Shown here: piece after piece, positions 1 to 20,188 of the stretch
Position numbering within the stretch: the stretch's first letter is position 1
How the letters are laid out: each line of letters opens with the position of its first letter
Assembly: GCA_035283845.1 (NCBI GenBank)
Contig: DATESZ010000264.1
Location: 1-55,360, forward strand
DNA from: Syntrophales bacterium
Lineage (GTDB): Bacteria; Desulfobacterota; Syntrophia; Syntrophales; JACQWR01
Direction: 5' to 3'
DNA length: 55,360 nt
Program-made: the position numbers and the translations under genes
Notes under the pieces: generated by a model
What the model was told of the DNA's origin: nothing
Database searches by the model: none
Seen by the model: the letters and a program-made list of their open reading frames with translations, nothing else

Positions 1-141
1 CTATCCGCATACTTCCTCCTCTCCATTCAAAAATTATGCCACGTGCTAGGCAGAATTATCATATCTCAATATCACTAATTATGCCTATTGCGCTGTTGAA
101 CTCCACAAAAGACATGGTTCCTGCTTCATCCGCCGGCATTA
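1..141. repeat. Terminal direct repeat copy 1 (= 55220..55360); assembly overlap of a circular or circularly permuted genome
   Basis: nt 1-141 (ctatccgcatacttcc...catccgccggcatta) recur verbatim as the last 141 nt of the window. Confidence 0.95.
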
Positions 142-300
142 AAACACCACACGTCCGCAGGCTCTTTCCGAGGTTCCCCCGGTGGCTGAAATCAAGTTCT
201 GTTTCTGTAATCCGAATTTAAGGATATTCTGCGCTGCAAGATGGTCTCTGTCATGGGCTGCCCCGCACGTCTCACATGTCCACACGCGGTCAGATAGCGT
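95..300 (-). ncRNA. Candidate TnpB guide RNA (omega/reRNA) scaffold overlapping the tnpB 3' end
   Basis: Inference only. In characterised TnpB elements the RNA overlaps the 3' end of tnpB and stops at the element right end. Here the minus-strand sequence ...GTGGAGTTCAAC ends at nt 95. The 5' limit cannot be set by eye. Confidence 0.3.
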
Positions 301-1302
301 CAGCCGAGCATTCACCTTGCCACAGGTACACATACGGCTTGAAGGCTCAAAACGGCCTATCTCCAGATAGTTCTTGCCACTGTCTGCAAGTTTATACTGG
401 AGCATCCGGTAGAAATCTCCAAGCCCTAAATCAGAAATGCTCTGAGCAAGGCAGTGATTCTTCACCATGCCCTTGATGAAAAGGTCTTCACACACAACCG
501 TATCGAAGCGGTTGACTATCCCGCTTGTCGTCTTGTGTAAGAAATCCTTTCTCTGGTTTGCCACATGTTCATGATACCGCGCAAGTTTCAATACGGCTTT
601 GCGTCTATTGCCACTTCCTTTCACCTTCCGGCTTGCCCTACGCTGTAAAACCTTCAGCCTTCCGAGTGCCTGCTTCAGGTGCTTCGGATTTTCTATCTCC
701 GTTCCATCTGAAAGAACGGCAAACGTCTTGATGCCTGTGTCAATCCCGACCGCCGTTGCCTTGCGGATCGCCTTCTGCTTTGCCTTCTTGTCTTCTGCCT
801 CAACGGCAATACTCACGAAGAACTTGCCTGTTGCCGTCTTCTTAATCACTGCTGTCTTTATTGTTCCCTCGAATGTCCGGCTTATTCGTGTCGGTATCCA
901 TCCGAGCTTAGGAGCAAAGACCCTATTTTCATCAAACTTGACCTTTACATTTTGCGGAAAACCTACAGTATGCCGTTTGTCATGCTTGCGCTTGAACTTT
1001 GGGAATCCGTGCTTTTCCCTAAAGAAACGAGTGAAGGCTTTTTCCATATTCACAATAGACTGTTGGAGGCTCTGAGCAACAGACAGATTCAGCCATTCAT
1101 ATTCAGGTTTCTTCTTTATCTGCGTTAATTCTGCCATCAACGTGAAGGCACTCATGGTTTTTTTATCCTTCTGGTACGCCTCAATCCTTCGGGCAAGAGA
1201 CCAGTTATACACCCATCGGGCATTACCGAGCATCTGTTCAAGCTGCCCTGCCTGATGCTGGTTCGGATAGATTCTGTATTCGTAACCACGTATTTTTACC
1301 AT
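139..1302 (-). CDS. tnpB: TnpB RNA-guided endonuclease (IS605 OrfB family), 387 aa
   Basis: ORF track. RuvC triad motifs VGIDTG, VCEDL and DRDHLAAQNI, with a CxxC...CxxC zinc finger (CTCGK..CETCG) between the last two. Confidence 0.93.
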   Translation of the reverse strand: MVKIRGYEYRIYPNQHQAGQLEQMLGNARWVYNWSLARRIEAYQKDKKTMSAFTLMAELTQIKKKPEYEWLNLSVAQSLQQSIVNMEKAFTRFFREKHGFPKFKRKHDKRHTVGFPQNVKVKFDENRVFAPKLGWIPTRISRTFEGTIKTAVIKKTATGKFFVSIAVEAEDKKAKQKAIRKATAVGIDTGIKTFAVLSDGTEIENPKHLKQALGRLKVLQRRASRKVKGSGNRRKAVLKLARYHEHVANQRKDFLHKTTSGIVNRFDTVVCEDLFIKGMVKNHCLAQSISDLGLGDFYRMLQYKLADSGKNYLEIGRFEPSSRMCTCGKVNARLTLSDRVWTCETCGAAHDRDHLAAQNILKFGLQKQNLISATGGTSERACGRVVF

Positions 1303-1310
1303 GTTTAGAA

Positions 1311-1338: not shown

Positions 1339-1366
1339 GTCTTTTTAGAAAATAAATAAATATGGG

Positions 1367-1425
1367 GTTCAACAAAGGTTTCGAGCGGACGGGGTGAAGC
1401 TCCGCCGCTCAAACCGGCGTTATCC
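1367..1425 (+). repeat. attC-like folded repeat a (59 nt)
   Basis: GTTCAAC-AAA-GGTTT[C]GAGCGG[A]CGG-ggtgaagct-CCGCCGCTCAAACC-GGC-GTTATCC. The TTA of the right core is the stop of 1420..1599. Confidence 0.75.
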
Positions 1426-1599
1426 TAATATCAACTGCCGATGTTTCCACGCATCGTCGGCAAGCCCTTCGGCGTCCTCTACTGGTAATTTCCGCAACCT
1501 GTCATGTTGTCCGGTCTGACACGCGTCATCATAAATATTCGCCGCATAGGTAGCTAAAAATGTTACCGTAAAGTGTTCTTTAAATTCTTTTTCGTCCAT
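1420..1599 (-). CDS. Hypothetical cassette protein, 59 aa
   Basis: Internal ATG of ORF 1420..1776 preceded by GGGGGGAAG. The longer ORF-track start would read through repeat b. Confidence 0.6.
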   Translation of the reverse strand: MDEKEFKEHFTVTFLATYAANIYDDACQTGQHDRLRKLPVEDAEGLADDAWKHRQLILG

Positions 1600-1618
1600 A
1601 ATCTTCCCCCCATTAAAA

Positions 1619-1705
1619 GGATAACAATTAAATGAAGCGGAGCGGAAAGTCGCTCGTCGCGCCTCATTCTTGGGCTTTGGCCGCCCGCTTATTCCTGCGT
1701 TGTGT
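1619..1705 (+). repeat. attC-like folded repeat b (87 nt)
   Basis: GGATAAC-AATTA-AAT[G]AAGCGG[A]GCGG...CCGCCCGCTTATT-CCTGC-GTTGTGT. About 88% identical to repeat e. Confidence 0.75.
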
Positions 1706-1783
1706 AAAATAAAACCATAAACTGAAAGATGCCCACAAAGTGAAACAAAAAATCCCAGCACCAAGAAAGGCACCATAAAAAAG

Positions 1784-2227
1784 ATGACGGATACGATTGT
1801 TGGAGCACTTATCGGGGTCGGCAGTGCTATTCTCGGCGCGATTGTTGGAGCTTGGATCGGTTATCGACTCTCCATTTCTTTGGTTCATGTCACTACTCGA
1901 CACAATGCTGCGTCCAATTTGAGGAAAGCTTTCTATGACGAACTTGCCATCTTGAATATGAGCAGCCTTAAAGATATTGATGCCTGTTCTATGCTTGAGG
2001 GTGCTTTCAAGAAACATATGATCGCTTTTTGGGAACTCAAATCCACCTTGCCGAAAAGCAAATGCGTTGCTTTCACCCAGGCATGGGAAGAGTATTATTG
2101 TTATCCAGGAACAGGGGACCATCATCTTGAACAATACGACACACTTACTGGAGGCTCGGAACAGCGTAAGGGGAAAAGAACGCTTGCAATTAAACGGATT
2201 GAACATATTCTCTCCTTTACTGAATAA
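1784..2227 (+). CDS. Hypothetical membrane-anchored protein, 147 aa; the only plus-strand gene in the array
   Basis: ORF track. N-terminal hydrophobic helix (IVGALIGVGSAILGAIVGAWIG). More protein-like than the antisense ORF 1664..2245. No clear SD. Confidence 0.5.
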   Translation: MTDTIVGALIGVGSAILGAIVGAWIGYRLSISLVHVTTRHNAASNLRKAFYDELAILNMSSLKDIDACSMLEGAFKKHMIAFWELKSTLPKSKCVAFTQAWEEYYCYPGTGDHHLEQYDTLTGGSEQRKGKRTLAIKRIEHILSFTE

Positions 2228-2239
2228 ATGAAAAAGACC

Positions 2240-2298
2240 ACACAACCAAGCACTACAGCGGACAGGCTGATCGCCTGCCGCTGACCTTTGCGTTATGT
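2240..2298 (+). repeat. attC-like folded repeat c (59 nt)
   Basis: ACACAAC-CAAGC-ACT[A]CAGCGG[A]CAGGC-tgatc-GCCTGCCGCTGACC-TTTGC-GTTATGT. The right core holds the stop of 2293..2496. Confidence 0.8.
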
Positions 2299-2496
2299 TT
2301 CAAAATCCTTCAAAGTCATATGTCCCTGGCATACAAAAACAATGACAGAGAAGAAACAACATTCCCAATACGTGGGTTGGAGTATGGCAAAACGAGCGGG
2401 TACGTTCCATAAATAGTAATAACCAAACCACAATAATCCGCCCGTGGCTGCCCACCAGAAAATACAGTACAAAGCAAATGCAAAATATTTTAACAT
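2293..2496 (-). CDS. Hypothetical small membrane protein, 67 aa
   Basis: ORF track. Two hydrophobic segments rich in W/Y/F. The start codon is the CAT of the left core of repeat d. Confidence 0.5.
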   Translation of the reverse strand: MLKYFAFALYCIFWWAATGGLLWFGYYYLWNVPARFAILQPTYWECCFFSVIVFVCQGHMTLKDFET

Positions 2497-2580
2497 AACA
2501 AGCTCACTGAACCCGACCGGAATTACGTCCGGTGCGTTTCAGCCAAATCCGTGGCCAGCGGGTTATCTCTGGCGTTATCT
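2493..2580 (+). repeat. attC-like folded repeat d (88 nt)
   Basis: ACATAAC...AACCCG-ACCGGaattacgtCCGGT...CGGGTT-ATCTCTGGC-GTTATCT. The central ~60 nt are identical to repeat g. Confidence 0.7.
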
Positions 2581-2581
2581 A

Positions 2582-2788
2582 TCACTCAAGTACCCGATAG
2601 TTTTTAAGTGGAATCCATCGGCCCTTGTCCTCGATCATACACCCACCGAAAAAAGTCCATTCATGTTGTTTCCCTATACGGCTTGCCTGGCCATCGCATT
2701 CCATTTTTCCCGCGATAGGGATTAGTGCAAGAATTGCAAGAATTGCGACCGCTATGACCACTTCGATAATTGTAAATCCTTTCATCAT
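2582..2788 (-). CDS. Prepilin-type N-terminal domain protein (pilin/pseudopilin-like), 68 aa
   Basis: MMKGFTIIEVVIAVAILAILA matches the G-F-T-L-I-E prepilin cleavage/methylation motif plus a hydrophobic helix. AAGGAG SD lies before the ATG at 2788. Confidence 0.7.
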   Translation of the reverse strand: MMKGFTIIEVVIAVAILAILALIPIAGKMECDGQASRIGKQHEWTFFGGCMIEDKGRWIPLKNYRVLE

Positions 2789-2809
2789 CCGTCTCCTTTT
2801 AAATTTAAA

Positions 2810-3283
<474 letters not shown>

Positions 3284-3302
3284 CTAACTCCTTAAAATAA
3301 AA

Positions 3303-3362
3303 GCATAACAATTAGTTGCAGCGGACAGGCTAATCGCCGCGCCGCTGACCTTTGCGTTAGCT
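3303..3362 (+). repeat. attC-like folded repeat f (60 nt)
   Basis: GCATAAC-AATTA-GTT[G]CAGCGG[A]CAGGC...CCGCTGACC-TTTGC-GTTAGCT. The right core holds the stop of 3357..3545. Confidence 0.8.
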
Positions 3363-3545
3363 TCCGTAGCATCTTTTCCTTGGCCCTTTGCATCCCATAC
3401 ACGGGTTCTCTCCCTTATTTACAAGTCCCATCACAATCATTCCACCCAATAAACACGTTTTGGGAACGTACCCTTGTCCGATTGCCATTTGCAGATTAAT
3501 ATCGTCGCTGTCTGCTTCTATTTGACTAAAATAATGTGGTTTCAT
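3357..3545 (-). CDS. Hypothetical cassette protein, 62 aa
   Basis: Internal ATG of ORF 3357..3575 preceded by AGGAGAG. Confidence 0.55.
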   Translation of the reverse strand: MKPHYFSQIEADSDDINLQMAIGQGYVPKTCLLGGMIVMGLVNKGENPCMGCKGPRKRCYGS

Positions 3546-3566
3546 TCGATCTCTCCTTTCAAAAAT

Positions 3567-3649
3567 AAAGAACAATTCAACCCCGACCGGAATTACGTCC
3601 GGTGCGTTTCAGCCAAATCCGTGGCCAGCGGGTTATCTCTGCGTTATAT
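3567..3649 (+). repeat. attC-like folded repeat g (83 nt)
   Basis: AAAGAAC-AATTC-AAC[C]CCG-ACCGGaattacgtCCGGT...CGGGTT-ATCTCTGC-GTTATAT. Confidence 0.75.
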
Positions 3650-3654
3650 CCCGA

Positions 3655-3873
3655 TCATTTAAAGTACCGCAAGAAGCAATCGTAGCAGCATTCCTTGTCT
3701 TCATAAATACCATCAAGGCCAAGAATTACATGTTTACCGCACTTGAAGCACTTCCCCGTTAGTGGCAACGGTTCCGTCCCGACATTTGAGAACATTGCAT
3801 TAAAGTGGTCGGATATTCTTAACCTTTCTGCCTTTCCTACTTCCGACTCTTCCCATTGTCCTTGTGTTGGCAT
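3655..3873 (-). CDS. Hypothetical zinc-ribbon protein, 72 aa
   Basis: ORF track. CFKCGKH...CCYDCF cysteine pairs. AGGAGG SD. Confidence 0.6.
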   Translation of the reverse strand: MPTQGQWEESEVGKAERLRISDHFNAMFSNVGTEPLPLTGKCFKCGKHVILGLDGIYEDKECCYDCFLRYFK

Positions 3874-3896
3874 ATTGAATTCCTCCTAAAATACTG

Positions 3897-3982
3897 ATTT
3901 AACCAGTCACTACAGCGAACGGGGATCACACGCTGCGGCTTCCATCATGCCCGTGGCCCCGCCGCTGACCTTAGCGTTAGCA
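3897..3982 (+). repeat. attC-like folded repeat h (86 nt)
   Basis: ATTTAAC-CAGTC-ACT[A]CAGCGa[A]CGGGG...CCCCGCCGCTGACC-TTAGC-GTTAGCA. The left core fits RYYYAAC exactly. The right core holds the stop of 3977..4219. Confidence 0.8.
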
Positions 3983-4219
3983 TTTAGGACATGAAACTCG
4001 TTTGTTGTACGTTTGCCAGCCCATAAATGTCTTGATGCTTTGCCAAGGGTGATGTTCTAATTTCTTAATAAGTTCCACATTACATCTTTGGCATTTAGTA
4101 TGAAAATTAAGGCCATCATAAAAACATTCACCAACAATATGACCAAGGGAAAAACATAAAAGAATGCTAACAATTTTATCCAGCGGACGGGTAATTTCGT
4201 CCTGTGGTTTTTCATTCAT
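3977..4219 (-). CDS. Hypothetical Cys-rich protein, 80 aa, with a repeat-encoded N-terminal leader
   Basis: ORF track. The only start codon and SD (GGAGG) lie inside repeat i. The first 17 codons (MNEKPQDEITRPLDKIV) are shared with 10081..10608. Confidence 0.5.
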   Translation of the reverse strand: MNEKPQDEITRPLDKIVSILLCFSLGHIVGECFYDGLNFHTKCQRCNVELIKKLEHHPWQSIKTFMGWQTYNKRVSCPKC

Positions 4220-4254
4220 GTTCTACCTCCCCGCCGATGATAACGGCGTTATAT
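4165..4254 (+). repeat. attC-like folded repeat i (90 nt)
   Basis: TGCTAAC-AATTT-TAT[C]CAGCGG[A]CGGG...CCCGCCGATGATA-ACGGC-GTTATAT. nt 4168..4224 are identical to 10557..10613 in repeat o. Confidence 0.75.
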
Positions 4255-4497
4255 TCTGATACACCTTACTGCCGTCTCCTGCCCCAACGGGAACTCAAAG
4301 CACGATGACCACTTAGTGCAGCATCTCCTCGTATGCGGAACTGAATGTAGACATGTGTATCCCGCCATTTTGAAACATTTGTCAGCGTTGATACACCTTA
4401 CATCGGGCTTTAGTTTAAACCTCCTCCCTTTTTTTATTACAACGGCTTCCCCGATTTCTCCTTTTTCACCCGCAACATAATTCCTGATATTCCCCAT
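4249..4497 (-). CDS. Hypothetical cassette protein, 82 aa
   Basis: Internal ATG of ORF 4249..4557 preceded by GGAGGGG. The stop lies in the right core of repeat i. Confidence 0.5.
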   Translation of the reverse strand: MGNIRNYVAGEKGEIGEAVVIKKGRRFKLKPDVRCINADKCFKMAGYTCLHSVPHTRRCCTKWSSCFEFPLGQETAVRCIRI

Positions 4498-4513
4498 AAC
4501 CCCTCCAAAAACC

Positions 4514-4599
4514 AGATGACAATTAAATGAAGGCGACGGGAAGTTACTCCGTCGCATTCAGACACGCTCACCGTCCCGCGCCTTATTACTGCGTTAGCA
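4514..4599 (+). repeat. attC-like folded repeat j (86 nt)
   Basis: AGATGAC-AATTA-AAT[G]AAGGCG[A]CGGGA...TCCCGCGCCTTATT-ACTGC-GTTAGCA. Same plan as b and e, with compensatory changes. Confidence 0.75.
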
Positions 4600-4953
4600 T
4601 CACCACTTGATTAATAAACCCCAAAATTCCGACTCGTGCGTCTTTTCAAACCACACTCCCATATTTGCAAAACAAGAAAACCCATCTGCGTGGGCCAGCG
4701 TTTCTTGTTCTTCTGCCGTGAGCCATCTTCCTGCCAGGCATACGCCTCTCCAGTTAAGCGTGATCTCCTGCACTGATTTACAAACGCACTCTCCGATTTT
4801 ACGACACGCCTTCGTTCTGAGGCCGGTATAGAGGTAGAGTTTATCCCCCGGTTTTGGGTTCCTCCCGTCCCGCCGTTTCGCCCGGATCGTTTGTGTTTTT
4901 AACCCGGCTTCAACCAATGGCGCAAATTGCTTTTTAAATCCTAATAATGGCAT
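4600..4953 (-). CDS. ASCH-domain-like protein, 117 aa
   Basis: ORF track. N-terminal GFKKQFAPLVEAGLKTQTIR...PGDKLYLY resembles the ASCH beta-barrel signature (from memory). G-rich SD. Confidence 0.55.
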   Translation of the reverse strand: MPLLGFKKQFAPLVEAGLKTQTIRAKRRDGRNPKPGDKLYLYTGLRTKACRKIGECVCKSVQEITLNWRGVCLAGRWLTAEEQETLAHADGFSCFANMGVWFEKTHESEFWGLLIKW

Positions 4954-4983
4954 CTCTCCCCCCTATGCAAAAGATAATAAAAA

Positions 4984-5046
4984 TGCTAACAAATCGCTCC
5001 AGCGGAGTGCCAAAGGACCGGCACCCGCTGACCTTTGGCGTTATGA
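4984..5046 (+). repeat. attC-like folded repeat k (63 nt)
   Basis: TGCTAAC-AAATC-GCT[C]CAGCGG[A]GTGCC-aaaggacc-GGCACCCGCTGACC-TTTGGC-GTTATGA. The right core holds the stop of 5041..5208. Confidence 0.8.
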
Positions 5047-5208
5047 TTCATCATCTAATGGACAATCCCCCGGCATACAACAGGCATGCTGCCTCTGTAT
5101 ATCCCCTCTCACCAAGAGCAAGCTGCATTCCCCATCAAGATTCTGCCGGGAGGGAAGAAAACAAGGGCACATGCCGCAACTTGTTATTTTATCAGGCAAC
5201 TTTTTCAT
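5041..5208 (-). CDS. Hypothetical Cys-rich miniprotein, 55 aa (below ORF-track cutoff)
   Basis: Hand translation: MKKLPDKITSCGMCPCFLPSRQNLDGECSLLLVRGDIQRQHACCMPGDCPLDDES. GGAGGAG SD 3 nt before the ATG at 5208. Confidence 0.45.
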   Translation of the reverse strand: MKKLPDKITSCGMCPCFLPSRQNLDGECSLLLVRGDIQRQHACCMPGDCPLDDES

Positions 5209-5227
5209 AACTCCTCCATAAATAAAG

Positions 5228-5287
5228 ACATAACAATGAAATCAAGGCGACGGATTTTACTCCGCCTGCTCTTTCGCTGATTCCTGA
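5228..5287 (+). repeat. Degenerate attC-like repeat l (left half only)
   Basis: ACATAAC-AATGA-AATCAAGGCGACGGA...CGCTGATT. No GTTA right core before the exonuclease gene. Confidence 0.4.
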
Positions 5288-5309
5288 TACAGGTGGCTAT
5301 AAAACGCTC

Positions 5310-5939
5310 TCAGGAAGTCATCATTTTTTCGTAAATTGCCATTGTCGTTTTGATGTCTCTCAAACAGTGGTTATCTATCGCCTCGTAGTCCCCCATTAAC
5401 CAGAGTTGGTAAATCTCCGATCCATTGCCGCCGCCGTGCTGAACGCCCAAGAAATCAGCACACGAGGCCAAAGAAACATAGTCTTTAAAATCTGCCGCCC
5501 AGACCTTCATCAAGTCCGTCGTTAGATGCGGGTTGCCCCTCGGTATGGCGTTCCTTATTCCCGTGAGGCCATATTTTATGGCTTTTCTCCATATCCACGG
5601 CATGTCAAACGTGATGATATTCCATCCCACCAAGTGCAGCGGTTCATGCCATGCGCCTGCTATTTTATCAAAAGCCCCGGCTAAAAGCTCCATCGTTTCC
5701 CGTTCGTTTGCCCCTCGGATGATTTGGGCTTCCCCGCCTTCAAGGCAGAGGCCAACACAGAAGATTTCCCCCTTCATGCTGTTAAGGCTCTGCTTTTGGT
5801 ATTCATTCTCGACATTGGCTTCTTGATATGCCCTGATGGTTTCCGGCTTGGACATTGTGCCGGGAGCTTTTATATCTTCAGGGAGTGGCCTGGTCGGGCC
5901 GGGGGTAGATTCTATGTCCAGGAATAATTTTGGTATCAT
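5310..5939 (-). CDS. DnaQ-like 3'-5' exonuclease (PolB-exonuclease-related family), 209 aa
   Basis: ORF track. LFLDIESTP Exo I motif. Start overlaps the ERF stop (ATGA). Confidence 0.7.
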   Translation of the reverse strand: MIPKLFLDIESTPGPTRPLPEDIKAPGTMSKPETIRAYQEANVENEYQKQSLNSMKGEIFCVGLCLEGGEAQIIRGANERETMELLAGAFDKIAGAWHEPLHLVGWNIITFDMPWIWRKAIKYGLTGIRNAIPRGNPHLTTDLMKVWAADFKDYVSLASCADFLGVQHGGGNGSEIYQLWLMGDYEAIDNHCLRDIKTTMAIYEKMMTS

Positions 5940-6676
5940 GGTTGACCTCCGATATTATCCGGGACATCCTGCGGTTCTACGATGGTGATCGACACAAGAT
6001 TGTTTCCGTATTGACCTTTGACAAACGCGACCTTGACGGGAACGATATTTGCCGCCGCGCCGGATGCAATGAGGCTTAGGTCTTTCTTGAAAGTCTGATA
6101 AATATTCCCGTCTTCGTCTGTTATCCCGTACTTGACATACGGTTTACCCTTGTTCGCTCCGGCGGTTGACACCCCCGGCTTTTCCTCTACTGACTTGATG
6201 TAAACGGTTTTGGTTTCCTCGTTTCCGGCAAGGGCTGTTTTTTCGGCAGGCGGCTTTGTCGTTTTATTGTCGCCCACTCCTGCGCTCGCCGCGTTTCCGT
6301 CATCATCCTCCGGTGCTATTCCCACAATGGATTGTAGAGAATAACGCCGCAGGTAGGTTATGCAGCTTCCGATGGCCTGCGGGTCGCTTTTAACCGGCCT
6401 TGCCACAAGCCGCCCTCGCATCCACTCGCCGGAAGAATGGCAAAGCGTAGTATCTATGCAGACCATCTCCGGGTGTTCTGGTAGGAAATCTGCCGTTTGC
6501 ACAACGCTTAGTCCGTTGTTGGCAAGCGGCTTCCGGCACGCATCCCATACAGACGCAAGGTCGGCGTAGGAGCTTTTAAAGAAGGGGTTTTGGCTATCCT
6601 TTACGGCCCCCTCCATTATCCCCTGTGCTTTCGCCAGGGCGTCTGCTAATTTCCCTATTGTCTCTGATTGGCTCAT
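5936..6676 (-). CDS. ERF-family single-strand annealing recombinase, 246 aa
   Basis: Internal ATG with AAGGAG SD. IGKLADALAKAQ...NPFFKSSYADLASVWDACR is the remembered ERF N-terminal signature. Confidence 0.8.
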   Translation of the reverse strand: MSQSETIGKLADALAKAQGIMEGAVKDSQNPFFKSSYADLASVWDACRKPLANNGLSVVQTADFLPEHPEMVCIDTTLCHSSGEWMRGRLVARPVKSDPQAIGSCITYLRRYSLQSIVGIAPEDDDGNAASAGVGDNKTTKPPAEKTALAGNEETKTVYIKSVEEKPGVSTAGANKGKPYVKYGITDEDGNIYQTFKKDLSLIASGAAANIVPVKVAFVKGQYGNNLVSITIVEPQDVPDNIGGQP

Positions 6677-6713
6677 CGAAAAAACTCCTTGCTGATTTTG
6701 TAGGCACCTTCTT

Positions 6714-7040
6714 TCATAATTTATTCCCCGCAAAGGCATTTAGTATTGATCTCATCGGTTCTGTCACATGGGCGTTTAATTTTCCCGGCTCCTCTCCCGC
6801 TTCCCACGGCTCGGAAGTGAGGCACATGAAGTTTACCCCGGCCGCTAAGATTTCGTACCGCGTGGGCCACGCCTCATCGTGGAAGGTTTTTCTGCAATCT
6901 CCCCGAGAAAACAGGCGGAACAATGCCTCGCTATCTAGGTGGATACTGAAGCTGCTCACCCCAATACACCCCTCGGCGTGCAGCTCCGCATATTTTTTCG
7001 TTAACTCCAATGCCTTCGATATAAACTCTTGTTTTCCCAT
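6714..7040 (-). CDS. Hypothetical protein, 108 aa
   Basis: ORF track. Contains the 34-nt segment (6789..6822, LTSEPWEAGEE) duplicated at 9757..9790. Confidence 0.6.
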   Translation of the reverse strand: MGKQEFISKALELTKKYAELHAEGCIGVSSFSIHLDSEALFRLFSRGDCRKTFHDEAWPTRYEILAAGVNFMCLTSEPWEAGEEPGKLNAHVTEPMRSILNAFAGNKL

Positions 7041-8340: not shown

Positions 8341-8344
8341 GGCT

Positions 8345-9273: not shown

Positions 9274-9426
9274 TAATAACCTCCCACCGGTTAGGTTGGG
9301 GAAGGCCCCGCTGCCTGCCCTAGAGCAGACAACGGGTGGGGATGGCCTTCCGTATTAGTCTTTGCGATCTCCCATTAACCGCGCTGGTCTTATGTAATGC
9401 CGCGTGCGGCATATCTCTCGTTATCT
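9274..9426 (+). repeat. Long composite attC-like repeat m (~153 nt)
   Basis: TAATAAC...CGGTTA/TAACCG, GGAAGGCC/GGCCTTCC and ATGCCGC/GCGGCAT stems...ATCTCTC-GTTATCT. The right core holds the stop of 9421..9573. Confidence 0.5.
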
Positions 9427-9573
9427 ACCATTACAAACGGATTCTTTCTGGGGACGTATTTTTAGAAGACGATCCACTGCTTCTGGTGTTAGGTACACTT
9501 CCTCCCCACTACAATCATAACATCCATCGAACTCGATATGTAAGTCTCCGTCTAAATCCCATTCTATTTTCAT
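9421..9573 (-). CDS. Hypothetical cassette protein, 50 aa
   Basis: Internal ATG of ORF 9421..9621 with GAGGA 8 nt upstream. Confidence 0.45.
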   Translation of the reverse strand: MKIEWDLDGDLHIEFDGCYDCSGEEVYLTPEAVDRLLKIRPQKESVCNGR

Positions 9574-9603
9574 GTTCTCATCCTCAAATCTCCTAAAATA
9601 ACA

Positions 9604-9669
9604 AGATAACAAAGCGCTCAAGACGGACGTGGCATACAGCCGCCACGCCGCTTAGATTGAGCGTTCCCT
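9604..9669 (+). repeat. attC-like folded repeat n (66 nt)
   Basis: AGATAAC-AAAGC-GCTCAAgaCGG[A]CGTGGC-atacagcc-GCCACGCCGcttagaTTGAGC-GTTCCCT. Confidence 0.65.
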
Positions 9670-9744
9670 ACCACCAATAACCAAATGCTCCGTTATTCCT
9701 ATATGCAACTTCGCGCCCTCCGCCGTTTCATGCGCTCTTCTAAA

Positions 9745-9921
9745 CTAAACATGGGTCTCCTCTCCCGCTTCCCACGGCTCGGAAGTGAGGAACGCCCGGA
9801 CGCCATCGATAAGCTCGTCCAAGTTGTTCGTGCTGATAACATTGGTATGGCCCGAATAGGCGTTGTACCTGCCGAAATTGTTATCCCGGCCCCCGTCGCT
9901 TATGGTTAGATTTTTAGTCAT
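9745..9921 (-). CDS. Hypothetical protein, 58 aa
   Basis: Internal ATG overlapping the stop of 9914..10081 (ATGACTAA). The C-terminus carries the duplicated LTSEPWEAGEE segment. Confidence 0.5.
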   Translation of the reverse strand: MTKNLTISDGGRDNNFGRYNAYSGHTNVISTNNLDELIDGVRAFLTSEPWEAGEETHV

Positions 9922-10081
9922 GGGTTTTCCCCAGCTTTTTAGTGGGCAACCTGCCCTTTCCGTCAATCTTACATTTGGGACATTTGCGCCGCCGTATTGC
10001 ATGCATGAGCGGATACTCTTCGCGACAAGCATAATTTCGGCACCGTACCCACTTTATATCAAAACAAGACACATACCACAT
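9914..10081 (-). CDS. Hypothetical zinc-ribbon protein, 55 aa
   Basis: Internal ATG overlapping the stop of 10081..10608 (TAATG). CRNYAC...CPKC. Confidence 0.5.
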   Translation of the reverse strand: MWYVSCFDIKWVRCRNYACREEYPLMHAIRRRKCPKCKIDGKGRLPTKKLGKTHD

Positions 10082-10608
10082 TATTCCCCTACCTCCTTGT
10101 ACTGGCATCCGTGAGCGGCGATCCCCTTTTCCTTCCGCCCCATCACCATGCAGTCTTCGGGGTGATATTCGGAGCGTTCCGGTTCGTAGTCATTCGCCCA
10201 CTTAAACGGTATTTCGTGTAGCTCTTTACCGCAATAACAGCAGAACCCCATGCCATTTTCAGAGGGTGTCCCCTCGATTATGCAATGGAGTTGACCGCAT
10301 TCTGTTGACCAGCTCCCCTCTTCGTCCGCTGTCCAGGAGCACCCCTGCCCCGGCCTATTTTCACCCATTTTAACCAGAGGTTCCTCTGTGTACTCTTTTT
10401 TTACGTAAAGCATGCCTGTCTTGTGATCTTCAATACACCAAGACTTTTTTGCTATATGCTTAGCTATTATCATTAAGGTTCTGATGTTATTGCTCACCCC
10501 CTGCCAGTGCCAATAAACAGAGTATGGCCCCTTGGTACGAAGCGAATAACGGGGCATAACAATTTTATCCAGCGGACGGGTAATTTCGTCCTGTGGTTTT
10601 TCATTCAT
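10081..10608 (-). CDS. Hypothetical protein, 175 aa, with a repeat-encoded leader and the duplicated C-terminal tail
   Basis: The ATG at 10608 with GGAAGGAAG SD lies inside repeat o. An alternative ATG lies in the GTTATG core (MPRYSL...). Confidence 0.55.
   Translation of the reverse strand: MNEKPQDEITRPLDKIVMPRYSLRTKGPYSVYWHWQGVSNNIRTLMIIAKHIAKKSWCIEDHKTGMLYVKKEYTEEPLVKMGENRPGQGCSWTADEEGSWSTECGQLHCIIEGTPSENGMGFCCYCGKELHEIPFKWANDYEPERSEYHPEDCMVMGRKEKGIAAHGCQYKEVGE
10105..10180. repeat. 76-bp dispersed direct repeat, copy 2
   Basis: 75/76 identical to 7835..7910. Confidence 0.9.
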
Positions 10609-10643
10609 GTTCTTCCTTCCCGCCGCTGACCTTTGCGTTATAT
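10554..10643 (+). repeat. attC-like folded repeat o (90 nt)
   Basis: GCATAAC-AATTT-TAT[C]CAGCGG[A]CGGG...CCCGCCGCTGACC-TTTGC-GTTATAT. Confidence 0.8.
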
Positions 10644-10858
10644 TACTGATGACCATCTAAACCTTCGTTCCAAGTATTAACCCCAGGATTTTCTACATCT
10701 CCGTTATTTCTTATATCGGCAAATGACCAATCTTCATCCCCGTCGACGTGTAGGGAAAAAGAAATTTCACCGTCTTTTGGTAATTCAGGATGATTGGTTT
10801 CCCGAAGTATTTTTTGGACTGCATCAGCTATTTCTCGTTTTTGTCTTACTGAAAACAT
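10643..10858 (-). CDS. Hypothetical acidic protein, 71 aa
   Basis: ORF track. GGGAGGTG SD. Confidence 0.65.
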   Translation of the reverse strand: MFSVRQKREIADAVQKILRETNHPELPKDGEISFSLHVDGDEDWSFADIRNNGDVENPGVNTWNEGLDGHQ

Positions 10859-10879
10859 GCGCCACCTCCCTTATAAAAA

Positions 10880-10942
10880 ATATAACCAGTCACTAAAGCG
10901 GCGTGAGGCTGTTTGCCACGCCGCTTACCTTGGGCGTTATGT
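10880..10942 (+). repeat. attC-like folded repeat p (63 nt)
   Basis: ATATAAC-CAGTC-ACT[A]AAGCGGCGTG-aggctgtttgc-CACGCCGCTTACC-TTGGGC-GTTATGT. Confidence 0.8.
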
Positions 10943-10953
10943 GACAAAATCCC

Positions 10954-11112
10954 TCACTCATATTCAGTGCAATCATGGTTCTCGTGTTTCGCGCAATATT
11001 CACAAAAACCTTCGCGCCCGCAAATATCGCAAGTGCTTGTGTCATCCGAGCCATCAGGGTTTTTTATCTGCTCGCAACATACATGACAAAAACCTCTATC
11101 TTCGTCTCTCAT
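10954..11112 (-). CDS. Hypothetical Cys-rich miniprotein, 52 aa
   Basis: Internal ATG of ORF 10954..11136 with GAGGGA SD. CHVCC...CDICG...CEYC. Confidence 0.5.
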   Translation of the reverse strand: MRDEDRGFCHVCCEQIKNPDGSDDTSTCDICGREGFCEYCAKHENHDCTEYE

Positions 11113-11132
11113 ATTTCCCTCTATAAATAAAA

Positions 11133-11221
11133 GCATAACCAGTCACTGAACCCGCCCGGGGAATTCCGGTCTGGGTTTTCCGTCAAGGCTTAGGCCCCGG
11201 CGGGTTATCTCTACGTTATAT
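11133..11221 (+). repeat. attC-like folded repeat q (89 nt)
   Basis: GCATAAC-CAGTC-ACTG-AACCCGCC[C]GGGG...CCCCGGCGGGTT-ATCTCTAC-GTTATAT. Confidence 0.75.
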
Positions 11222-11458
11222 TTAAAATTCATCAACCAGTTCATCAAATGGGCGTCCCGTGCGTATTGCTTCGGCGGATAGGTGGAGAAAAACGCGTGGG
11301 CTAAATTTACGAACCTTTTCATATCTTTCATTGCCCTTACGGATATCGTGCAGAACCATATAATCTAACGCCTTCAGGTGGTCAGCGTGGAGGACAACCG
11401 CATCGTCACGGTGTAGTTCCCATGCCTCGTATGTTTTAGCATTATATGGGTTACTCAT
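11222..11458 (-). CDS. Hypothetical protein, 78 aa
   Basis: ORF track. GGAGGA SD. Preferred over the overlapping ORF 11143..11331. Confidence 0.65.
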   Translation of the reverse strand: MSNPYNAKTYEAWELHRDDAVVLHADHLKALDYMVLHDIRKGNERYEKVRKFSPRVFLHLSAEAIRTGRPFDELVDEF

Positions 11459-11534
11459 TCCAGTCCTCCATTAAAAGAATAAGATCATCTTTTGTATATG
11501 GTTGTTTTTTACTTGGTTTTCTCCAAAAAACAGA

Positions 11535-11583
11535 AAACAACTTAATCCAGCCCGTGGCCCGGCGGGTTATCCTTGCGCTATAC
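11535..11583 (+). repeat. Short attC-like repeat r (49 nt)
   Basis: AAACAAC-TTAAT-CC-AGCCCG-tggcccgg-CGGGTT-ATCCTTGC-GCTATAC. The GCTA variant of the right core supplies the TAG stop of 11578..11763. Confidence 0.5.
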
Positions 11584-11763
11584 AGCACAAAATAAAATAC
11601 AATCCTTAGCGTCGGATTGGCTAATCTCTATCAATCCATACGATCCATCACCCTCGTCAAGCCACCCTTCACCTGAGCAAATAAAAATCCTCTGATCGCG
11701 GGTTTTAACGGCCTCATATTCCGTTCGATGTTTACAATCGCTGCATTTTGGTGTGGTTTTCAT
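11578..11763 (-). CDS. Hypothetical Cys-containing protein, 61 aa
   Basis: Internal ATG overlapping the stop of 11760..11918 (ATGA). Confidence 0.55.
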   Translation of the reverse strand: MKTTPKCSDCKHRTEYEAVKTRDQRIFICSGEGWLDEGDGSYGLIEISQSDAKDCILFCAV

Positions 11764-12106: not shown

Positions 12107-12135
12107 ATCATACACCCGTCAAATGTGTTTGTCAA
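12107..12135 (-). promoter_or_regulatory. Early-left promoter (PL-like)
   Basis: Minus strand TTGACA (12135..12130), 17 nt, TATGAT (12112..12107). Confidence 0.6.
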
Positions 12136-19543: not shown

Positions 19544-19572
19544 TTGACAACCCGTAAAGTAAATGCTATTAC
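19544..19572 (+). promoter_or_regulatory. Sigma70-like promoter of the recombinase gene
   Basis: TTGACA (19544..19549), 17 nt, TATTAC (19567..19572). The ORF-track start at 19544 is this -35 box. Confidence 0.5.
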
Positions 19573-19591
19573 AGCCCAAAATGGAGCGCAT

Positions 19592-20188
19592 ATGACCAAG
19601 CATCAGCAATCGCTTAACCACCCCCAGAAGGGGTCTCGGATAACCGTTGACCCTATTAGAAGTCTCGAAGACATAAACGAGATCAAGCTGCTACTGAGGA
19701 ATGATCCGCTTTATCTTTGTCTTTTCACTCTAGGGATAAACACAGGATTGCGTGCTTCGGACTTACTCCATATTACGGCGGGGCAGGTCAAGGATTTATC
19801 CCCGATGGACGAGTTGTGTTTGAACAAGCGTAAGACCGGCAATGGTCGGAGGATGAATTTAAACTCGGCCTGTGTTGATGCGATACATTCTCTTTTGGCT
19901 AGCAGGGGGTATCTTGACGAAGAAGTCTTGTTTATTGGGCAGCGGGGGCCGTTGACTGTTTCGTCTGTGAATCGGTTGTGGAAAAGGTGGGCGAGGCAAT
20001 GTGGGATTCGGGGGAACTTCGGCAGTCATTCTGCCAGAAAGACTTTTGGCTATCATCAGCGCGCGACCTTTGGGGTGTGCCTGCCCGAGCTGATGCGGGT
20101 GTTTGGGCATTCAAGTGAACGGCAAACCCTTGCCTACATAGGCATCCAGGATGAGACGATAAAGAACATTTACGCAAACACACTATAA
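19592..20188 (+). CDS. Tyrosine recombinase, catalytic domain only, 198 aa
   Basis: ATG with GGAG SD. Catalytic motifs TGLRASDL (R), HSARKTF (HxxR), VFGHSS (H) and LAYIG (Y). No N-terminal core-binding domain of normal length. Confidence 0.85.
   Translation: MTKHQQSLNHPQKGSRITVDPIRSLEDINEIKLLLRNDPLYLCLFTLGINTGLRASDLLHITAGQVKDLSPMDELCLNKRKTGNGRRMNLNSACVDAIHSLLASRGYLDEEVLFIGQRGPLTVSSVNRLWKRWARQCGIRGNFGSHSARKTFGYHQRATFGVCLPELMRVFGHSSERQTLAYIGIQDETIKNIYANTL

What the first reader, a model, noticed from the sequence alone, without database searches (positions are those of the whole stretch)
1367..5287. attC-like folded repeats box single small genes in a phage early operon (block 1, 12 sites)
Between 1.37 and 5.29 kb every intergenic gap holds one 59-90 nt imperfect inverted repeat built to a fixed plan. 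Written on the + strand, the plan is as follows. First comes a core ending in AAC (GTTCAAC, ATTTAAC, GCATAAC, GATAAC). Next is a 3-5 nt unpaired spacer (AATTA or CAGTC), then a short helix interrupted by unpaired bases, then a variable stem-loop. After the complementary arm comes a 5-8 nt spacer ending in GC, then a core GTTAT or GTTAG. Three copies are 59-60 nt long. The stop codon of the gene to the right is usually the TTA of the right-hand core (2293, 2891, 3357, 3977, 4249, 5041). This is the R''-L''...L'-R' plan of integron attC sites. Copy f (GCATAACAATTAGTTGCAGCGGAC...CCGCTGACCTTTGCGTTAG) also resembles, from memory, the class-1 aadA attC (GCCTAACAATTCGTTCAAGCCGAC...GGCTTAACTCAAGCGTTAGAT). 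Each interval holds exactly one 55-147 aa ORF, which is the layout of a cassette array, but here it sits inside a phage operon. I know of no described phage-borne array of this kind.
Basis: partly seen in the sequence, partly recalled or inferred. Interest (0 to 1): 0.92.

Follow-up and report, generated by a model that had tools for sequence, protein, structure and literature searches.

The report
Integron-type gene cassettes inside a phage
A 55-kb phage carries about 16 genuine integron-type recombination sites (attC) that box single small early genes, but almost all the genes lie on the opposite strand from bacterial cassettes, which suggests phages keep their own cassette pool on the host's integron machinery.

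Summary
Two covariance models built only from bona fide attC sites each hit 12 sites in the window. One used 16 sites; the other used 12 class-1 plasmid sites. All hits are on the + strand and lie exactly in the reported gaps (E 2e-7 to 0.05). About 2 Mb of control phage DNA gave almost nothing.

The sites carry the hallmark of G|TT crossover. The outer bases of each R'' pair with the R' of the preceding site, not with their own R'.

One cassette (1784-2227, + strand) has a homologue in a canonical integron array. The homology begins at G|TTGTGT and ends in its attC.

Related viral contigs hold the same attC types. Near-identical backbones carry different cassette sets that diverge right after GTT.

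New points:
- 10 of 11 genes in block 1 lie on the attC bottom strand. Across viral arrays the count is 48-49 bottom to 2-3 top; in bacterial arrays it is 1 to 13.
- The stop codon TAA is usually the reverse complement of the G|TTA core.
- A second block lies at 9.4-11.6 kb.

The phage has no IntI, so this is a CALIN, probably served by a host (Syntrophales?) integrase. Phage CALINs were already described in 2023, so this is a new variant of a known kind.

The parts
1367..1425 (+). attC site a (59 nt). The + strand is the attC top strand. First site of block 1, next to the TnpB element.
   Evidence: R1 36.3 bits, E 2.5e-6. R2 33.9 bits. The fold has bulges on the 5' arm spaced as in aadA attC.
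1619..1705 (+). attC site b (87 nt). Its R' is GTTGTGT.
   Evidence: R1 29.6 bits, R2 29.0 bits. 88% identical to site e (D8). Its R'' GGATAAC is the exact complement of the R' of site a.
1700..2292 (+). The one canonical-polarity cassette. It runs from TTGTGT through a 5' UTR and gene 1784-2227 (+, 147 aa, N-terminal TM helix) to attC c.
   Evidence: A 62% identical homologue, P0002, lies in the canonical array L251. Nucleotide homology covers 1692-2263, starts at G|TTGTGT and ends in the attC. The neighbours are unrelated.
2240..2298 (+). attC site c (59 nt).
   Evidence: R1 24.2 bits, R2 20.8 bits. Its R'' ACACAAC is the complement of the R' of site b.
2493..2580 (+). attC site d (88 nt).
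   Evidence: R1 27.2 bits, R2 25.1 bits. Its core 2512-2571 is identical to that of site g (D12).
2810..2896 (+). attC site e (87 nt).
   Evidence: R1 32.8 bits on + against 13.5 bits on -. R2 30.8 bits.
3303..3362 (+). attC site f (60 nt).
   Evidence: R1 32.7 bits, R2 30.7 bits. Close to the VIM-2 attC GCATAACATGAAGTTGCAGCCGAC....
3567..3649 (+). attC site g, degenerate: the left core and L'' are eroded.
   Evidence: No model hit. The 60-nt centre is 100% identical to site d. The R' GTTATAT is intact.
3897..3982 (+). attC site h (86 nt), weak.
   Evidence: R1 10.7 bits, E 3.6. The plan is visible in the sequence. The R' GTTAGCA is the complement of the R'' of site i.
4165..4254 (+). attC site i (90 nt). 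It contains the ATG and the first 18 codons of gene 3977-4219.
   Evidence: R1 25.6 bits, R2 27.1 bits. 91% identical to site o in block 2 (D10).
4514..4599 (+). attC site j (86 nt). Its R'' is AGATGAC.
   Evidence: R1 19.7 bits, R2 21.3 bits. The same type recurs several times in viral contig L091.
4984..5046 (+). attC site k (63 nt), the best-scoring site.
   Evidence: R1 36.9 bits, R2 38.9 bits, E 2e-7. Near-identical type in L103 6035-6096.
5228..5290 (+). Site l: a truncated attC (R'', spacer, L'' and part of the stem; no R'). It abuts the stop of the exonuclease gene.
   Evidence: Sequence. Member of repeat family D2. No model hit.
1420..5208 (-). Ten single small cassette genes on the attC bottom strand: 1420-1599, 2293-2496, 2582-2788, 2891-3280, 3357-3545, 3655-3873, 3977-4219, 4249-4497, 4600-4953, 5041-5208. 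Each follows a U-rich tract and a GGAG-type ribosome-binding site.
   Evidence: ORF lists and gene calls in L150. Seven stops are the reverse complement of G|TTA. Families: a Dam-like fragment, an N_methyl pilin-like protein and an ASCH-like protein (phrog_8581); the rest match none.
9373..11585 (+). Block 2 of the same array type, in the same operon. Sites: m 9373-9425 (weak entry-type site), n 9604-9669, o 10554-10643, p 10880-10942, q 11133-11221, r ~11530-11585 (right half only).
   Evidence: R1/R2 scores: o 25.8/26.6, p 28.5/24.2, q 20.2/17.5 bits; n 14 bits, E 0.3-0.6. The R'' of n is the complement of the R' of m.
12107..12135 (-). PL-like early promoter (TTGACA, 17 nt, TATGAT). It would drive the leftward operon holding both blocks. 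It faces a perfect-consensus PR-like promoter at 12178-12205 (+).
   Evidence: Consensus scan. All genes from 12098 down to 1420 are on the - strand, except 1784-2227.
5310..6739 (-). Backbone recombination genes between the two blocks: an exonuclease (5310-5939) and an ERF single-strand annealing protein (5936-6739).
   Evidence: Pfam DNA_pol_B_exo2/RNase_H_2 and ERF.
139..1302 (-). TnpB (IS200/IS605 family) at the top-strand 5' end of block 1. It sits where an intI would lie in a complete integron, but it is not an integrase.
   Evidence: Pfam OrfB_IS605 and NCBIfam guided_TnpB, 323 bits.
19544..20188 (+). Short (214 aa) Xer-like tyrosine recombinase. It is the only recombinase in the window and is not an IntI.
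   Evidence: Catalytic domain only. The best NCBIfam match is XerA at 56 bits against a cut-off of 220, and there is no insertion relative to XerA. None of 80 viral loci encoding relatives has an attC hit.

Best explanation
The repeats are genuine integron-type attC sites, and each interval is a gene cassette. Together they form a two-block cluster of attC sites lacking an integrase (a CALIN), embedded in the leftward early operon of a circular ~55.2-kb SU10-like phage.

Shown:
- The sites have the sequence and folded structure of attC. The + strand is the top strand.
- The units carry the mark of crossover at G|TT.
- At least one unit is shared with a canonical integron array.
- Related phages with near-identical backbones differ by whole sets of such units.

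Inferred:
- Cassettes are inserted and excised when the - strand (the bottom strand) folds as single-stranded DNA and is cut at AA|C by an integron integrase. The host would supply this enzyme in trans, because the phage encodes none. The host is probably in the Syntrophales, whose chromosomal integrons carry almost the same attC type.
- The cassettes have no promoter and are read through from the PL-like promoter.

Unlike bacterial cassettes, the phage cassettes carry their gene on the attC bottom strand. The stop codon lies at the first base of the cassette, and the attC lies upstream of the gene in the mRNA. As a result the phage operon expresses them, whereas a host integron promoter would not.
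For: (1) Models R1 and R2 each give the same 12 hits in the window. R1 was built from 16 bona fide attC sites; R2 from 12 class-1 plasmid sites only. Scores are 17.5-38.9 bits and all hits are on the + strand. The reverse strand scores at most 13.5 bits, and no other hit has E<0.3.

(2) Specificity: one marginal hit in 0.88 Mb and none in 1.16 Mb of other phage loci.

(3) Fold: the pattern is 3-5 bp, bulge, 6 bp, bulge, variable stem on the 5' arm of the + strand. Real attC top strands fold the same way.

(4) Covariation over 58 phage sites: the L/stem helix is 90.7% paired, and 6 of 9 pairs show compensatory changes. Slid controls reach at most 42%. There is practically no G-T wobble.

(5) Crossover signature: the outer 4 nt of R''(n) pair with those of R'(n-1). 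The match is perfect in 37 of 49 adjacent pairs, mean 3.57 of 4. Against the site's own R' the mean is 2.08, and the permuted value is 2.15. None of 10000 permutations reaches the observed total. For the window alone, 8 of 12 are perfect. Class-1 control arrays behave the same.

(6) The cassette 1700-2292 is homologous (73.7% over 578 nt) to a cassette in the canonical array L251. The homology runs from G|TTGTGT into the attC, and the neighbours differ.

(7) L088 and L093 are 99.9% identical over 7.1 kb. They then carry 2 versus 5 unrelated cassettes, and divergence starts right after ...GGTTA. L104 and L162 diverge right after ...GCGCTGTT.

(8) Host link: a 100% identical copy of a window protein is deposited as 'Syntrophales bacterium'. 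A Smithella MAG with an intI fragment has a canonical array whose attC differs by 1 of 49 nt from a phage attC in L088.
Against: - No IntI is encoded in the window or seen in the stored parts of the other array-bearing viral contigs.
- More than 50 assemblies of this phage are 99.9% identical, with no cassette gain or loss. Turnover is therefore slow, or the sampled population is clonal.
- Hairpin cores and genes assort independently. Sites d and g share an identical core but have different flanks. L086 and L088 share an identical last hairpin but have different genes to its left. This fits homologous recombination or conversion between attC copies as well as integrase action.
- Several sites are eroded (g, h, l, m, r).
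- Homologues of cassette gene 4600-4953 in other phages sit in ordinary tight operons without attC.
- No recombination has been observed directly.
Confidence: 0.78

Rival explanations
1. The sites descend from attC but now serve mainly as short portable homology patches. The phage's own ERF and exonuclease system, or gene conversion, recombines between near-identical hairpin cores. Genes are shuffled by homologous recombination, not by an integron integrase.
For: - ERF and an exonuclease lie between the two blocks.
- A few hairpin types recur with up to 100% identity next to unrelated genes: d/g, i/o, b/e, and the last sites of L086 and L088.
- No integrase is present.
Against: - Homologous recombination does not explain why the 4 outer bases on the two sides of each gene are complementary.
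- It does not explain why junctions fall right after GTT next to non-attC entry elements.
- It does not explain why the shared cassette ends at G|TT.
- It may well act in addition to the integrase.
Confidence: 0.3
2. The array is a fossil. A stretch of a host chromosomal integron was captured once by illegitimate recombination. The sites are no longer recombined and persist only as spacers between genes.
For: - The array is invariant in more than 50 assemblies.
- Sites g, h, l, m and r are eroded.
- There is no integrase.
- Qi et al. 2023 describe prophages that carry captured fragments of chromosomal integrons.
Against: - A captured bacterial array would carry top-strand genes. Here 10 of 11 are bottom-strand, and several gene families are typical phage early genes.
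- There are two separate blocks in one operon.
- Many viral contigs share the polarity and the attC types but have different genes, and near-identical backbones differ in cassette content.
Confidence: 0.12
3. The hairpins work at the RNA level as leaky terminators, RNase processing sites or mRNA stabilisers between cistrons of the early transcript. Their likeness to attC would then be incidental or secondary.
For: - On the - strand each hairpin precedes a U-rich tract and a ribosome-binding site.
- A few partial terminator-like matches fall inside sites.
- attC sites are said to be weak terminators (text of PMC9892861).
Against: - The stem pairs are strictly Watson-Crick, with almost no G-U.
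- The terminator scan does not pick up the sites systematically.
- An RNA role explains neither the trans-cassette complementarity, nor the exact attC architecture with bulges, nor the cassette sharing.
- A secondary RNA role is not excluded.
Confidence: 0.1
4. The sites are substrates of a phage-borne enzyme. Candidates are the 214-aa Xer-like recombinase or the IS200/IS605 machinery linked to TnpB. Under this reading they are not substrates of an integron integrase.
For: - A tyrosine recombinase related to the Xer/IntI branch is encoded at 19544-20188.
- A TnpB gene abuts site a.
- IS200/IS605 transposition also uses folded single strands (general knowledge).
Against: - None of 80 viral loci (1.16 Mb) that encode relatives of the recombinase has an attC hit within 10 kb.
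- The enzyme lacks an N-terminal domain and the IntI-specific insertion.
- No TnpA is present.
- The other array-bearing contigs show no homologue in their stored parts.
Confidence: 0.07

Closest known systems
Clusters of attC sites lacking an integrase (CALINs) in phage genomes (Qi, Rajabal, Ghaly, Tetu, Gillings 2023, PMC9892861)
   Same: - attC sites in virulent and temperate phages without intI.
- Small cassettes, several of them DNA methyltransferases.
- Five of six tested phage sites recombined with IntI1 at G|TT, and the bottom strand worked better than the top.
- In Pseudoalteromonas phage H101, one of their phages, the class-1-only model places the top strand on + while every annotated gene is on -. 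That is the polarity seen here.
   Different: - Most of their phages have only 2-4 sites. Here there are 16-18, in two blocks inside one early operon.
- Reversed gene polarity was not reported.
- TJE1 has normal polarity.
- Their 16-site case is a prophage carrying a piece of a Vibrio chromosomal integron.
Sedentary chromosomal integron arrays (for example Vibrio VCR arrays; here the Smithella MAG array L116)
   Same: - Long arrays of single-gene, promoterless cassettes.
- A few homogeneous attC types.
- The same R''(n)-R'(n-1) signature.
- Nearly the same attC sequence: 1 mismatch in 49 nt between L116 and phage contig L088.
   Different: - They have intI, attI and Pc at the top-strand 5' end.
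- Their genes are on the top strand: 13 of 14 scored bacterial cassettes, against 2-3 of about 50 in phage arrays.
- Their genes are larger: median 209 aa against 77 aa.
Inverted cassettes in chromosomal integrons (mostly toxin-antitoxin cassettes with their own promoter; Richard et al. 2024, PMC13108822, seen as title and abstract only, rest from general knowledge)
   Same: The gene lies on the strand opposite to the usual one relative to its attC.
   Different: - In those arrays inverted cassettes are a minority scattered among normal cassettes, and they have their own promoters.
- Here inversion is the rule and expression comes from an external phage promoter.
PeSL 'mobile regulatory cassettes' in T4-type phages (Arbiol et al. 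2010; recalled from memory, not checked here)
   Same: Repeated stem-loops box single small early genes in plastic regions of phage genomes. They are thought to promote modular shuffling.
   Different: - PeSLs combine an early promoter with a stem-loop and act through homologous recombination.
- The sites here have no promoter motif.
- The sites here have full attC architecture and G|TT boundaries.

Membership tests
Integron attC recombination site | Inverse core R'' (RYYYAAC) and core R' (G|TTRRRY) at the two ends | tested here: met
   AAC and GTT are invariant in all 58 aligned phage sites. In the window the left cores are GTTCAAC, GGATAAC, ACACAAC, GCATAAC and TGCTAAC, and the right cores are GTTAT and GTTAG. 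The left core is eroded in g and j, and l has no R'.
Integron attC recombination site | L''/L' imperfect inverted repeat with extrahelical bases on one arm only, next to L'', plus an unpaired central spacer and a variable terminal structure (Nivina et al. 2016, PMC5027507) | tested here: met
   Single-strand DNA folds give a bulge, 6 bp, then a bulge on the + strand 5' arm, the same as aadA1, VIM-2, cmlA1 and TJE1 attC top strands. The spacers of 5 nt are unpaired. Total length varies from 59 to 90 nt.
Integron attC recombination site | Significant match to a sequence-plus-structure model of known attC sites (the IntegronFinder criterion) | tested here: met
   The IntegronFinder model itself was not available. 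Proxy models R1 and R2 were built from independent bona fide sites. Each gives 12 hits at E 2e-7 to 0.05, on one strand only. Controls are nearly empty.
Integron gene cassette | Unit bounded by G|TT crossovers, so that R'' of a cassette pairs with the TTRRRY at its own 5' end (the apparent R' of the preceding site) | tested here: met
   37 of 49 adjacent pairs are perfect, mean 3.57 of 4, against 2.08 for the site's own R'. None of 10000 permutations reaches this. Class-1 controls behave the same.
Integron gene cassette | The same cassette is found in different arrays with different neighbours | tested here: met
   Window 1692-2263 matches L251 471-1038 (73.7%). The match runs from G|TTGTGT to the attC and the flanks are unrelated. 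This was shown for one cassette only. No such pair was found for a bottom-strand cassette.
Integron gene cassette | Promoterless ORF on the attC top strand, upstream of its attC | tested here: not met
   10 of 11 genes in block 1 are on the bottom strand. The same holds for 48 of 60 cassettes in viral arrays (2 top, 10 ambiguous). Bacterial controls give 13 top to 1 bottom. Fisher p 4e-10, computed on the 49:3 viral tally, which also counts phage TJE1.
Complete integron | intI gene with adjacent attI and Pc at the top-strand 5' end of the array | tested here: not met
   That position holds TnpB in block 1 and a backbone gene in block 2. No IntI was found: the 10 larger proteins scanned against Pfam include only one tyrosine recombinase, the 214-aa Xer-like protein (NCBIfam), and tblastn with IntI1 finds nothing in the window.
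CALIN (cluster of attC sites lacking an integron integrase; Cury et al. 2016) | At least two attC sites close together with no intI nearby | tested here: met
   There are 9 significant sites within 3.7 kb and 3 within 0.7 kb. No intI occurs in the 55-kb circular genome.
Integron attC recombination site | Recombined as a folded bottom strand by an integron integrase | not testable with these tools
   This needs an attC x attI conjugation assay. Indirect support: phage H101 sites of the same polarity recombined with IntI1, and the bottom strand did better than the top.
Intrinsic transcription terminator | GC-rich hairpin directly followed by a U run on the transcribed strand | tested here: inconclusive
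   U-rich tracts follow the sites on the - strand, but 10-12 nt beyond the main stem. The consensus scan picks up only fragments of some sites.

The most novel reading that the evidence does not exclude
Some phage lineages, here probably phages of Syntrophales, keep their own pool of integron cassettes. These are made from ordinary small phage early genes and have the gene on the attC bottom strand. They would be shuffled by the host's integron integrase.

The reversed polarity could do three things:
- Place the recombinogenic strand on the non-template strand of the early operon, which is possibly also the lagging-strand template.
- Let the phage promoter express the cassettes.
- Keep phage cassettes silent if a host integron captures them, and keep host cassettes silent in the phage.

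Host integrons are now known to store anti-phage defence genes. Both sides of the arms race would then run on one recombination platform.

The same gene family occurs both with and without attC flanks, which could also give a handle on how cassettes are born.
Probability: 0.35. Interest if true: 0.9.

Novelty: new variant of a known kind. Interest (0 to 1): 0.75.

Why it matters
Integrons are regarded as bacterial devices, and phage-borne attC clusters have been reported only as a few short cases. This case shows a large, well-ordered array built into a phage early operon, and it recurs in many uncultivated phage contigs with one consistent twist: the genes are on the other strand.

If a host integrase moves these cassettes, phages would use the host's gene-capture system to vary their accessory early genes. 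That is the gene class in which anti-defence functions are usually found.

Polarity would separate the phage and host cassette pools at the level of expression, while still allowing physical exchange. One host-type cassette does sit antisense in the array.

How cassettes originate is an open question in the integron field. It becomes more approachable here because cassette genes have close homologues in plain phage operons without attC.

Tried and rejected
- A megablast of 1-12500 against deposited phages found nothing.
- Rfam has no attC family. Its only hit in the window is a group I intron.
- My first hand-made hairpin scanner was too strict, and after loosening it was too unspecific below a score of 16.
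- A plain MAFFT alignment of attC sites misplaced the right arms. I therefore masked the variable centre with N and padded the 5-nt spacers.
- The genome-collection scan with an 18-mer attC motif returned about as many matches as chance predicts (54 found, roughly 70 expected). Only about 10 of them proved to be real arrays.
- ERF relatives, including the closest at 71% identity, carry no attC.
- The metagenome scan with the exonuclease found one distant relative only.
- Exact-protein look-ups returned only clonal copies of this phage, so there is no within-lineage cassette polymorphism.
- The phage Xer-like recombinase as the cognate enzyme was rejected on co-occurrence.
- The integrase near an attC in L159 is an ordinary phage integrase.
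- I tried to decide which flanking hairpin travels with a bottom-strand gene:
  - The only homologous gene pairs had different hairpins on both sides.
  - The L161/L163 difference is an illegitimate deletion.
  - Homologues of gene 4600-4953 have no attC at all.
- The - strand ORF 1664-2206, which some gene callers pick, was set aside as non-protein-like. The overlapping + strand ORF has real homologues.

Full report
**What the window is.** The window is a complete, circularly permuted phage genome. Its first 141 bases repeat at its end. Near-identical contigs of 55.26-55.49 kb occur in more than 50 metagenome assemblies. It encodes a GpA-type large terminase, an SU10-type portal and adaptors, an M15 peptidase, ERF and an exonuclease, an HNH protein (gene call), a TnpB, and a 214-aa tyrosine recombinase. 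A perfect-consensus promoter at 12178-12205 (+) faces a near-consensus one at 12135-12107 (-). Everything from 12098 down to 1420 is on the - strand, except one gene.

**The observation.** Every gap between 1367 and about 5290 holds one imperfect inverted repeat built to the stated plan. Nine sites are clean (a, b, c, d, e, f, i, j, k). Three are weaker:
- g has an eroded left end, but its 60-nt centre is identical to that of d.
- h is weak.
- l is a left half only.

A second block of the same elements lies at 9373-11585 in the same operon.

**Independent membership test.** The IntegronFinder model was not available, so I built proxies.
- I took 11 attC sites from class-1 integron arrays on three plasmids. 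These were the cassettes aacA4, arr-3, dfrA27, estX, psp, aadA2, cmlA1, aadA1, qacL, aadB and VIM-2.
- I added aadA7 and four phage sites from the supplement of Qi et al. 2023, where strands are labelled and five of six phage sites recombined with IntI1.
- The variable centre was masked, and the R and L pairings of aadA were given as the structure.

This model, R1, scored every position of the window. It gives 12 hits with E<=0.025, all on the + strand and all at the sites named above. Nothing else has E<0.4, and the reverse strand of the same sites reaches at most 13.5 bits. Model R2, built from the 12 plasmid sites only, gives the same 12 hits (E 2e-7 to 0.047).

Controls:
- One marginal hit in 0.88 Mb of ERF-encoding phage loci.
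- None in 1.16 Mb of loci encoding relatives of the phage recombinase.
- None in 35 kb around homologues of one cassette gene.

**Structure.** Folded as single-stranded DNA, the short sites show 3-5 bp, a bulge, 6 bp, a bulge, then a variable stem. The bulges are on the 5' arm of the + strand. The top strands of aadA1, VIM-2, cmlA1 and TJE1 attC fold the same way. The - strand therefore has its extrahelical bases on the 3' arm next to L''. That is the definition of the recombinogenic bottom strand (PMC5027507).

Over 58 distinct phage sites aligned to R1:
- The L/stem helix is 90.7% paired.
- Six of nine pairs show changes on both sides.
- Slid controls reach at most 42% pairing.
- There is almost no G-T wobble, which points to a constraint on DNA and not on RNA.

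The outer three pairs of the R helix are poorly paired. This is expected if the outer bases of R' belong to the next cassette.

**Crossover signature.** In an array, the TTRRRY after G belongs to the next cassette. R'' of site n should therefore pair with R' of site n-1, not with its own R'. That is what is seen:
- In the window the outer four bases match perfectly in 8 of 12 adjacent pairs.
- Over 49 adjacent pairs in all phage arrays the mean is 3.57 of 4, with 37 perfect.
- Against the site's own R' the mean is 2.08, and after permutation it is 2.15. None of 10000 permutations reaches the observed total.
- Class-1 arrays used as positive controls show the same pattern.

The signature is symmetric. 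It shows that crossovers occur at the conserved triplets, but it does not by itself say on which strand.

**Polarity.** With the + strand as top, canonical cassettes would carry + strand genes upstream of each site. Instead, 10 of 11 genes in block 1 and all genes in block 2 are on the - strand. In 7 of 11 the stop codon TAA is the reverse complement of the TTA in G|TTA, so the ORF ends at the first base of the cassette.

The same holds in other viral contigs. These were found by exact scans for three attC motifs from this window: L085, L086, L088, L090, L091, L093-L095 and L158-L162. It also holds in a MAG contig, L103/L104, that shares phage genes with the window.

| Set of arrays | Bottom strand | Top strand | Ambiguous |
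|---|---|---|---|
| Viral arrays (60 cassettes) | 48 | 2 | 10 |
| Bacterial arrays (class-1 plasmids, Smithella, Methylococcaceae, Thiodiazotropha and others) | 1 | 13 | 2 |

With phage TJE1 included, the viral tally is 49 to 3, and Fisher p = 4e-10 was computed on that version. The single bacterial bottom-strand case is an artefact of my interval rule. Median ORF size is 77 aa in the viral arrays and 209 aa in the bacterial ones.

These viral contigs were found through motifs of this window, so they are not an unbiased sample. Pseudoalteromonas phage H101 is unrelated. With the class-1-only model it also has top-strand hits on + and all annotated genes on -. Phage TJE1 is canonical.

**The exception settles the parse.** The one + strand gene (1784-2227, 147 aa) has a 62% identical homologue on a Logan contig, L251. 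There it sits in a canonical array: four co-oriented attC hits, all genes on the top strand, and an AAA_15/AAA_21 ATPase as neighbour. Nucleotide homology is 73.7% over 578 nt. It starts at G|TTGTGT of the preceding site, which has the same six bases in both. It runs through the 5' UTR, the gene and R'' ACACAAC into the L'' arm, and then stops. The preceding site and the following cassette are unrelated.

This is one cassette in two arrays, bounded as the top-strand parse predicts. It also shows that the phage array exchanges with the ordinary cassette pool, and that attC, not expression, sets the orientation of insertion. In the phage this cassette is antisense to the operon.

**Turnover in relatives.** L088 and L093 are 99.9% identical over 7.1 kb. 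They then hold 456 nt (2 cassettes) versus 2845 nt (5 cassettes) without similarity, and then are 98.7% identical again.
- The left junction falls right after ...CAATGGTTA, at the end of a 45-nt element that is not an attC.
- The right junction lies in or at the end of the last attC.

L104 and L162 share a backbone at 95.9% that ends ...TTGCGCTGTT. Unrelated cassettes follow. In both pairs the shared element lies on the top-strand 5' side of the junction. This fits the top-strand parse and not the opposite one.

L086 and L088 share an identical last hairpin but differ in the gene and the R'' outer bases to its left. This may reflect the homogeneity of attC types, or homologous recombination inside the hairpins.

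This phage itself shows no cassette polymorphism in the assemblies available. Only a 33-nt tandem repeat varies in copy number.

**Which enzyme.** No IntI is present. The 214-aa recombinase has only a catalytic domain. It aligns to XerA without an insertion and scores far below every family cut-off. Viral contigs that encode its relatives, including eight at 41-53% identity, have no attC within 10 kb. I therefore infer that a host integrase acts in trans.

Host hints:
- A protein of this phage is deposited with 100% identity under 'Syntrophales bacterium'.
- A Smithella (Syntrophales) MAG has an intI fragment next to a canonical array.
- One attC of that array differs at 1 of 49 positions from the last attC of phage contig L088, and it resembles site k of the window.

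These are hints, not proof.

**Cassette content.** Most products match no family. Three do:
- One is a Dam-like methyltransferase fragment.
- One has a pilin-type N-terminal methylation motif.
- One is ASCH-like.

The ASCH-like family has more than 300 homologues. The six contexts examined at 56-84% identity are ordinary tightly packed phage or prophage operons without attC. At least some phage cassettes are therefore ordinary phage early genes that acquired attC flanks. They were not imported from bacterial integrons.

**Comparison and novelty.** The elements pass every structural and sequence test for attC. They also pass the boundary and sharing tests for cassettes. They fail two features of a complete integron, having no intI or attI and no top-strand genes. 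The array is therefore a CALIN.

Phage CALINs are known (PMC9892861), so the kind is not new. Further full-text searches found no report of reversed polarity or of large operon-embedded arrays. What appears new:
- The size and order of the array inside an early operon.
- The systematic reversal of gene polarity, with the stop codon at the cassette boundary.
- The recurrence of this design across many viral contigs.
- The direct link to a host-type attC and to a canonical cassette.

**Caveats.**
- The models are proxies with rough E-values.
- The viral comparison set is ascertained by motif.
- The host and the acting enzyme are inferred.
- No recombination event has been observed.
- I could not show which hairpin travels with a bottom-strand gene.

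Noticed in passing
window 28722-29617 (+): Rfam group I intron hit (RF00028; 53.3 bits against a gathering score of 50; full-length model match). It overlaps the start of the 565-aa ORF 28749-30446 in the structural region. That ORF has no Pfam match.
   Followed up: no
window 8373-8669, within ORF 8345-8932 (-): A 33-nt tandem repeat of about 9 copies inside an early gene. Copy number is the only difference between otherwise 99.9% identical assemblies: gene products of 162, 173, 195 and 239 aa, and contig lengths of 55261-55492.
   Followed up: partly
window 1-141 and 55220-55360: The first 141 bases repeat at the end of the window (k=141 assembly overlap). Other assemblies are circular permutations, so the genome is circular or terminally redundant at about 55.2 kb.
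   Followed up: yes
window 139-1302 (-): A TnpB gene (IS200/IS605 family RNA-guided nuclease, 387 aa) without TnpA. It sits between the end of the late operon and attC site a.
   Followed up: partly
window 4165-4254 and 10554-10643: The 90-nt attC type i/o contains an ATG followed by codons for MNEKPQDEITRPLDKIV on the - strand. In site i this is in frame with the 80-aa gene 3977-4219 and forms its N-terminus. The right arm of i (CCGCCGATGATAACGGC) differs from that of o (CCGCCGCTGACCTTTGC).
   Followed up: partly
window 7827-7916 vs 10097-10186; 6789-6825 vs 9757-9793: Near-identical segments (93% over 90 nt and 97% over 37 nt) shared between backbone genes and genes of block 2. This suggests paralogous C-terminal modules or recent recombination between the regions.
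   Followed up: no
L093 7091-7135 and 7334-7378; L088 ~12842-12885: A 45-nt element, TTTTGCATTATCAGGGCAAAATGG(T/C)TTGTTAATCAATGGTTA, is not an attC but ends in GGTTA. It marks the top-strand 5' boundary of the cassette array and occurs twice in L093, around one small gene. It could be an attI-like entry site. A comparable element ending in GCGCTGTT bounds the arrays in L104 and L162.
   Followed up: partly
window 19544-20188 (+): A tyrosine recombinase of only 214 aa (catalytic domain, TTG start, no recognisable N-terminal DNA-binding domain) just upstream of the terminase genes. Relatives at 30-53% identity are common in large viral contigs.
   Followed up: partly
window 9272-9372: About 100 nt of GC-rich, apparently structured non-coding sequence lies between backbone gene 8936-9271 and the first site (m) of block 2.
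   Followed up: no
L258 (reverse complement) ~560-870: A non-coding stretch of about 300 nt that looks structured lies next to an 84% identical homologue of cassette gene 4600-4953 on a JGI contig. No attC is present there.
   Followed up: no
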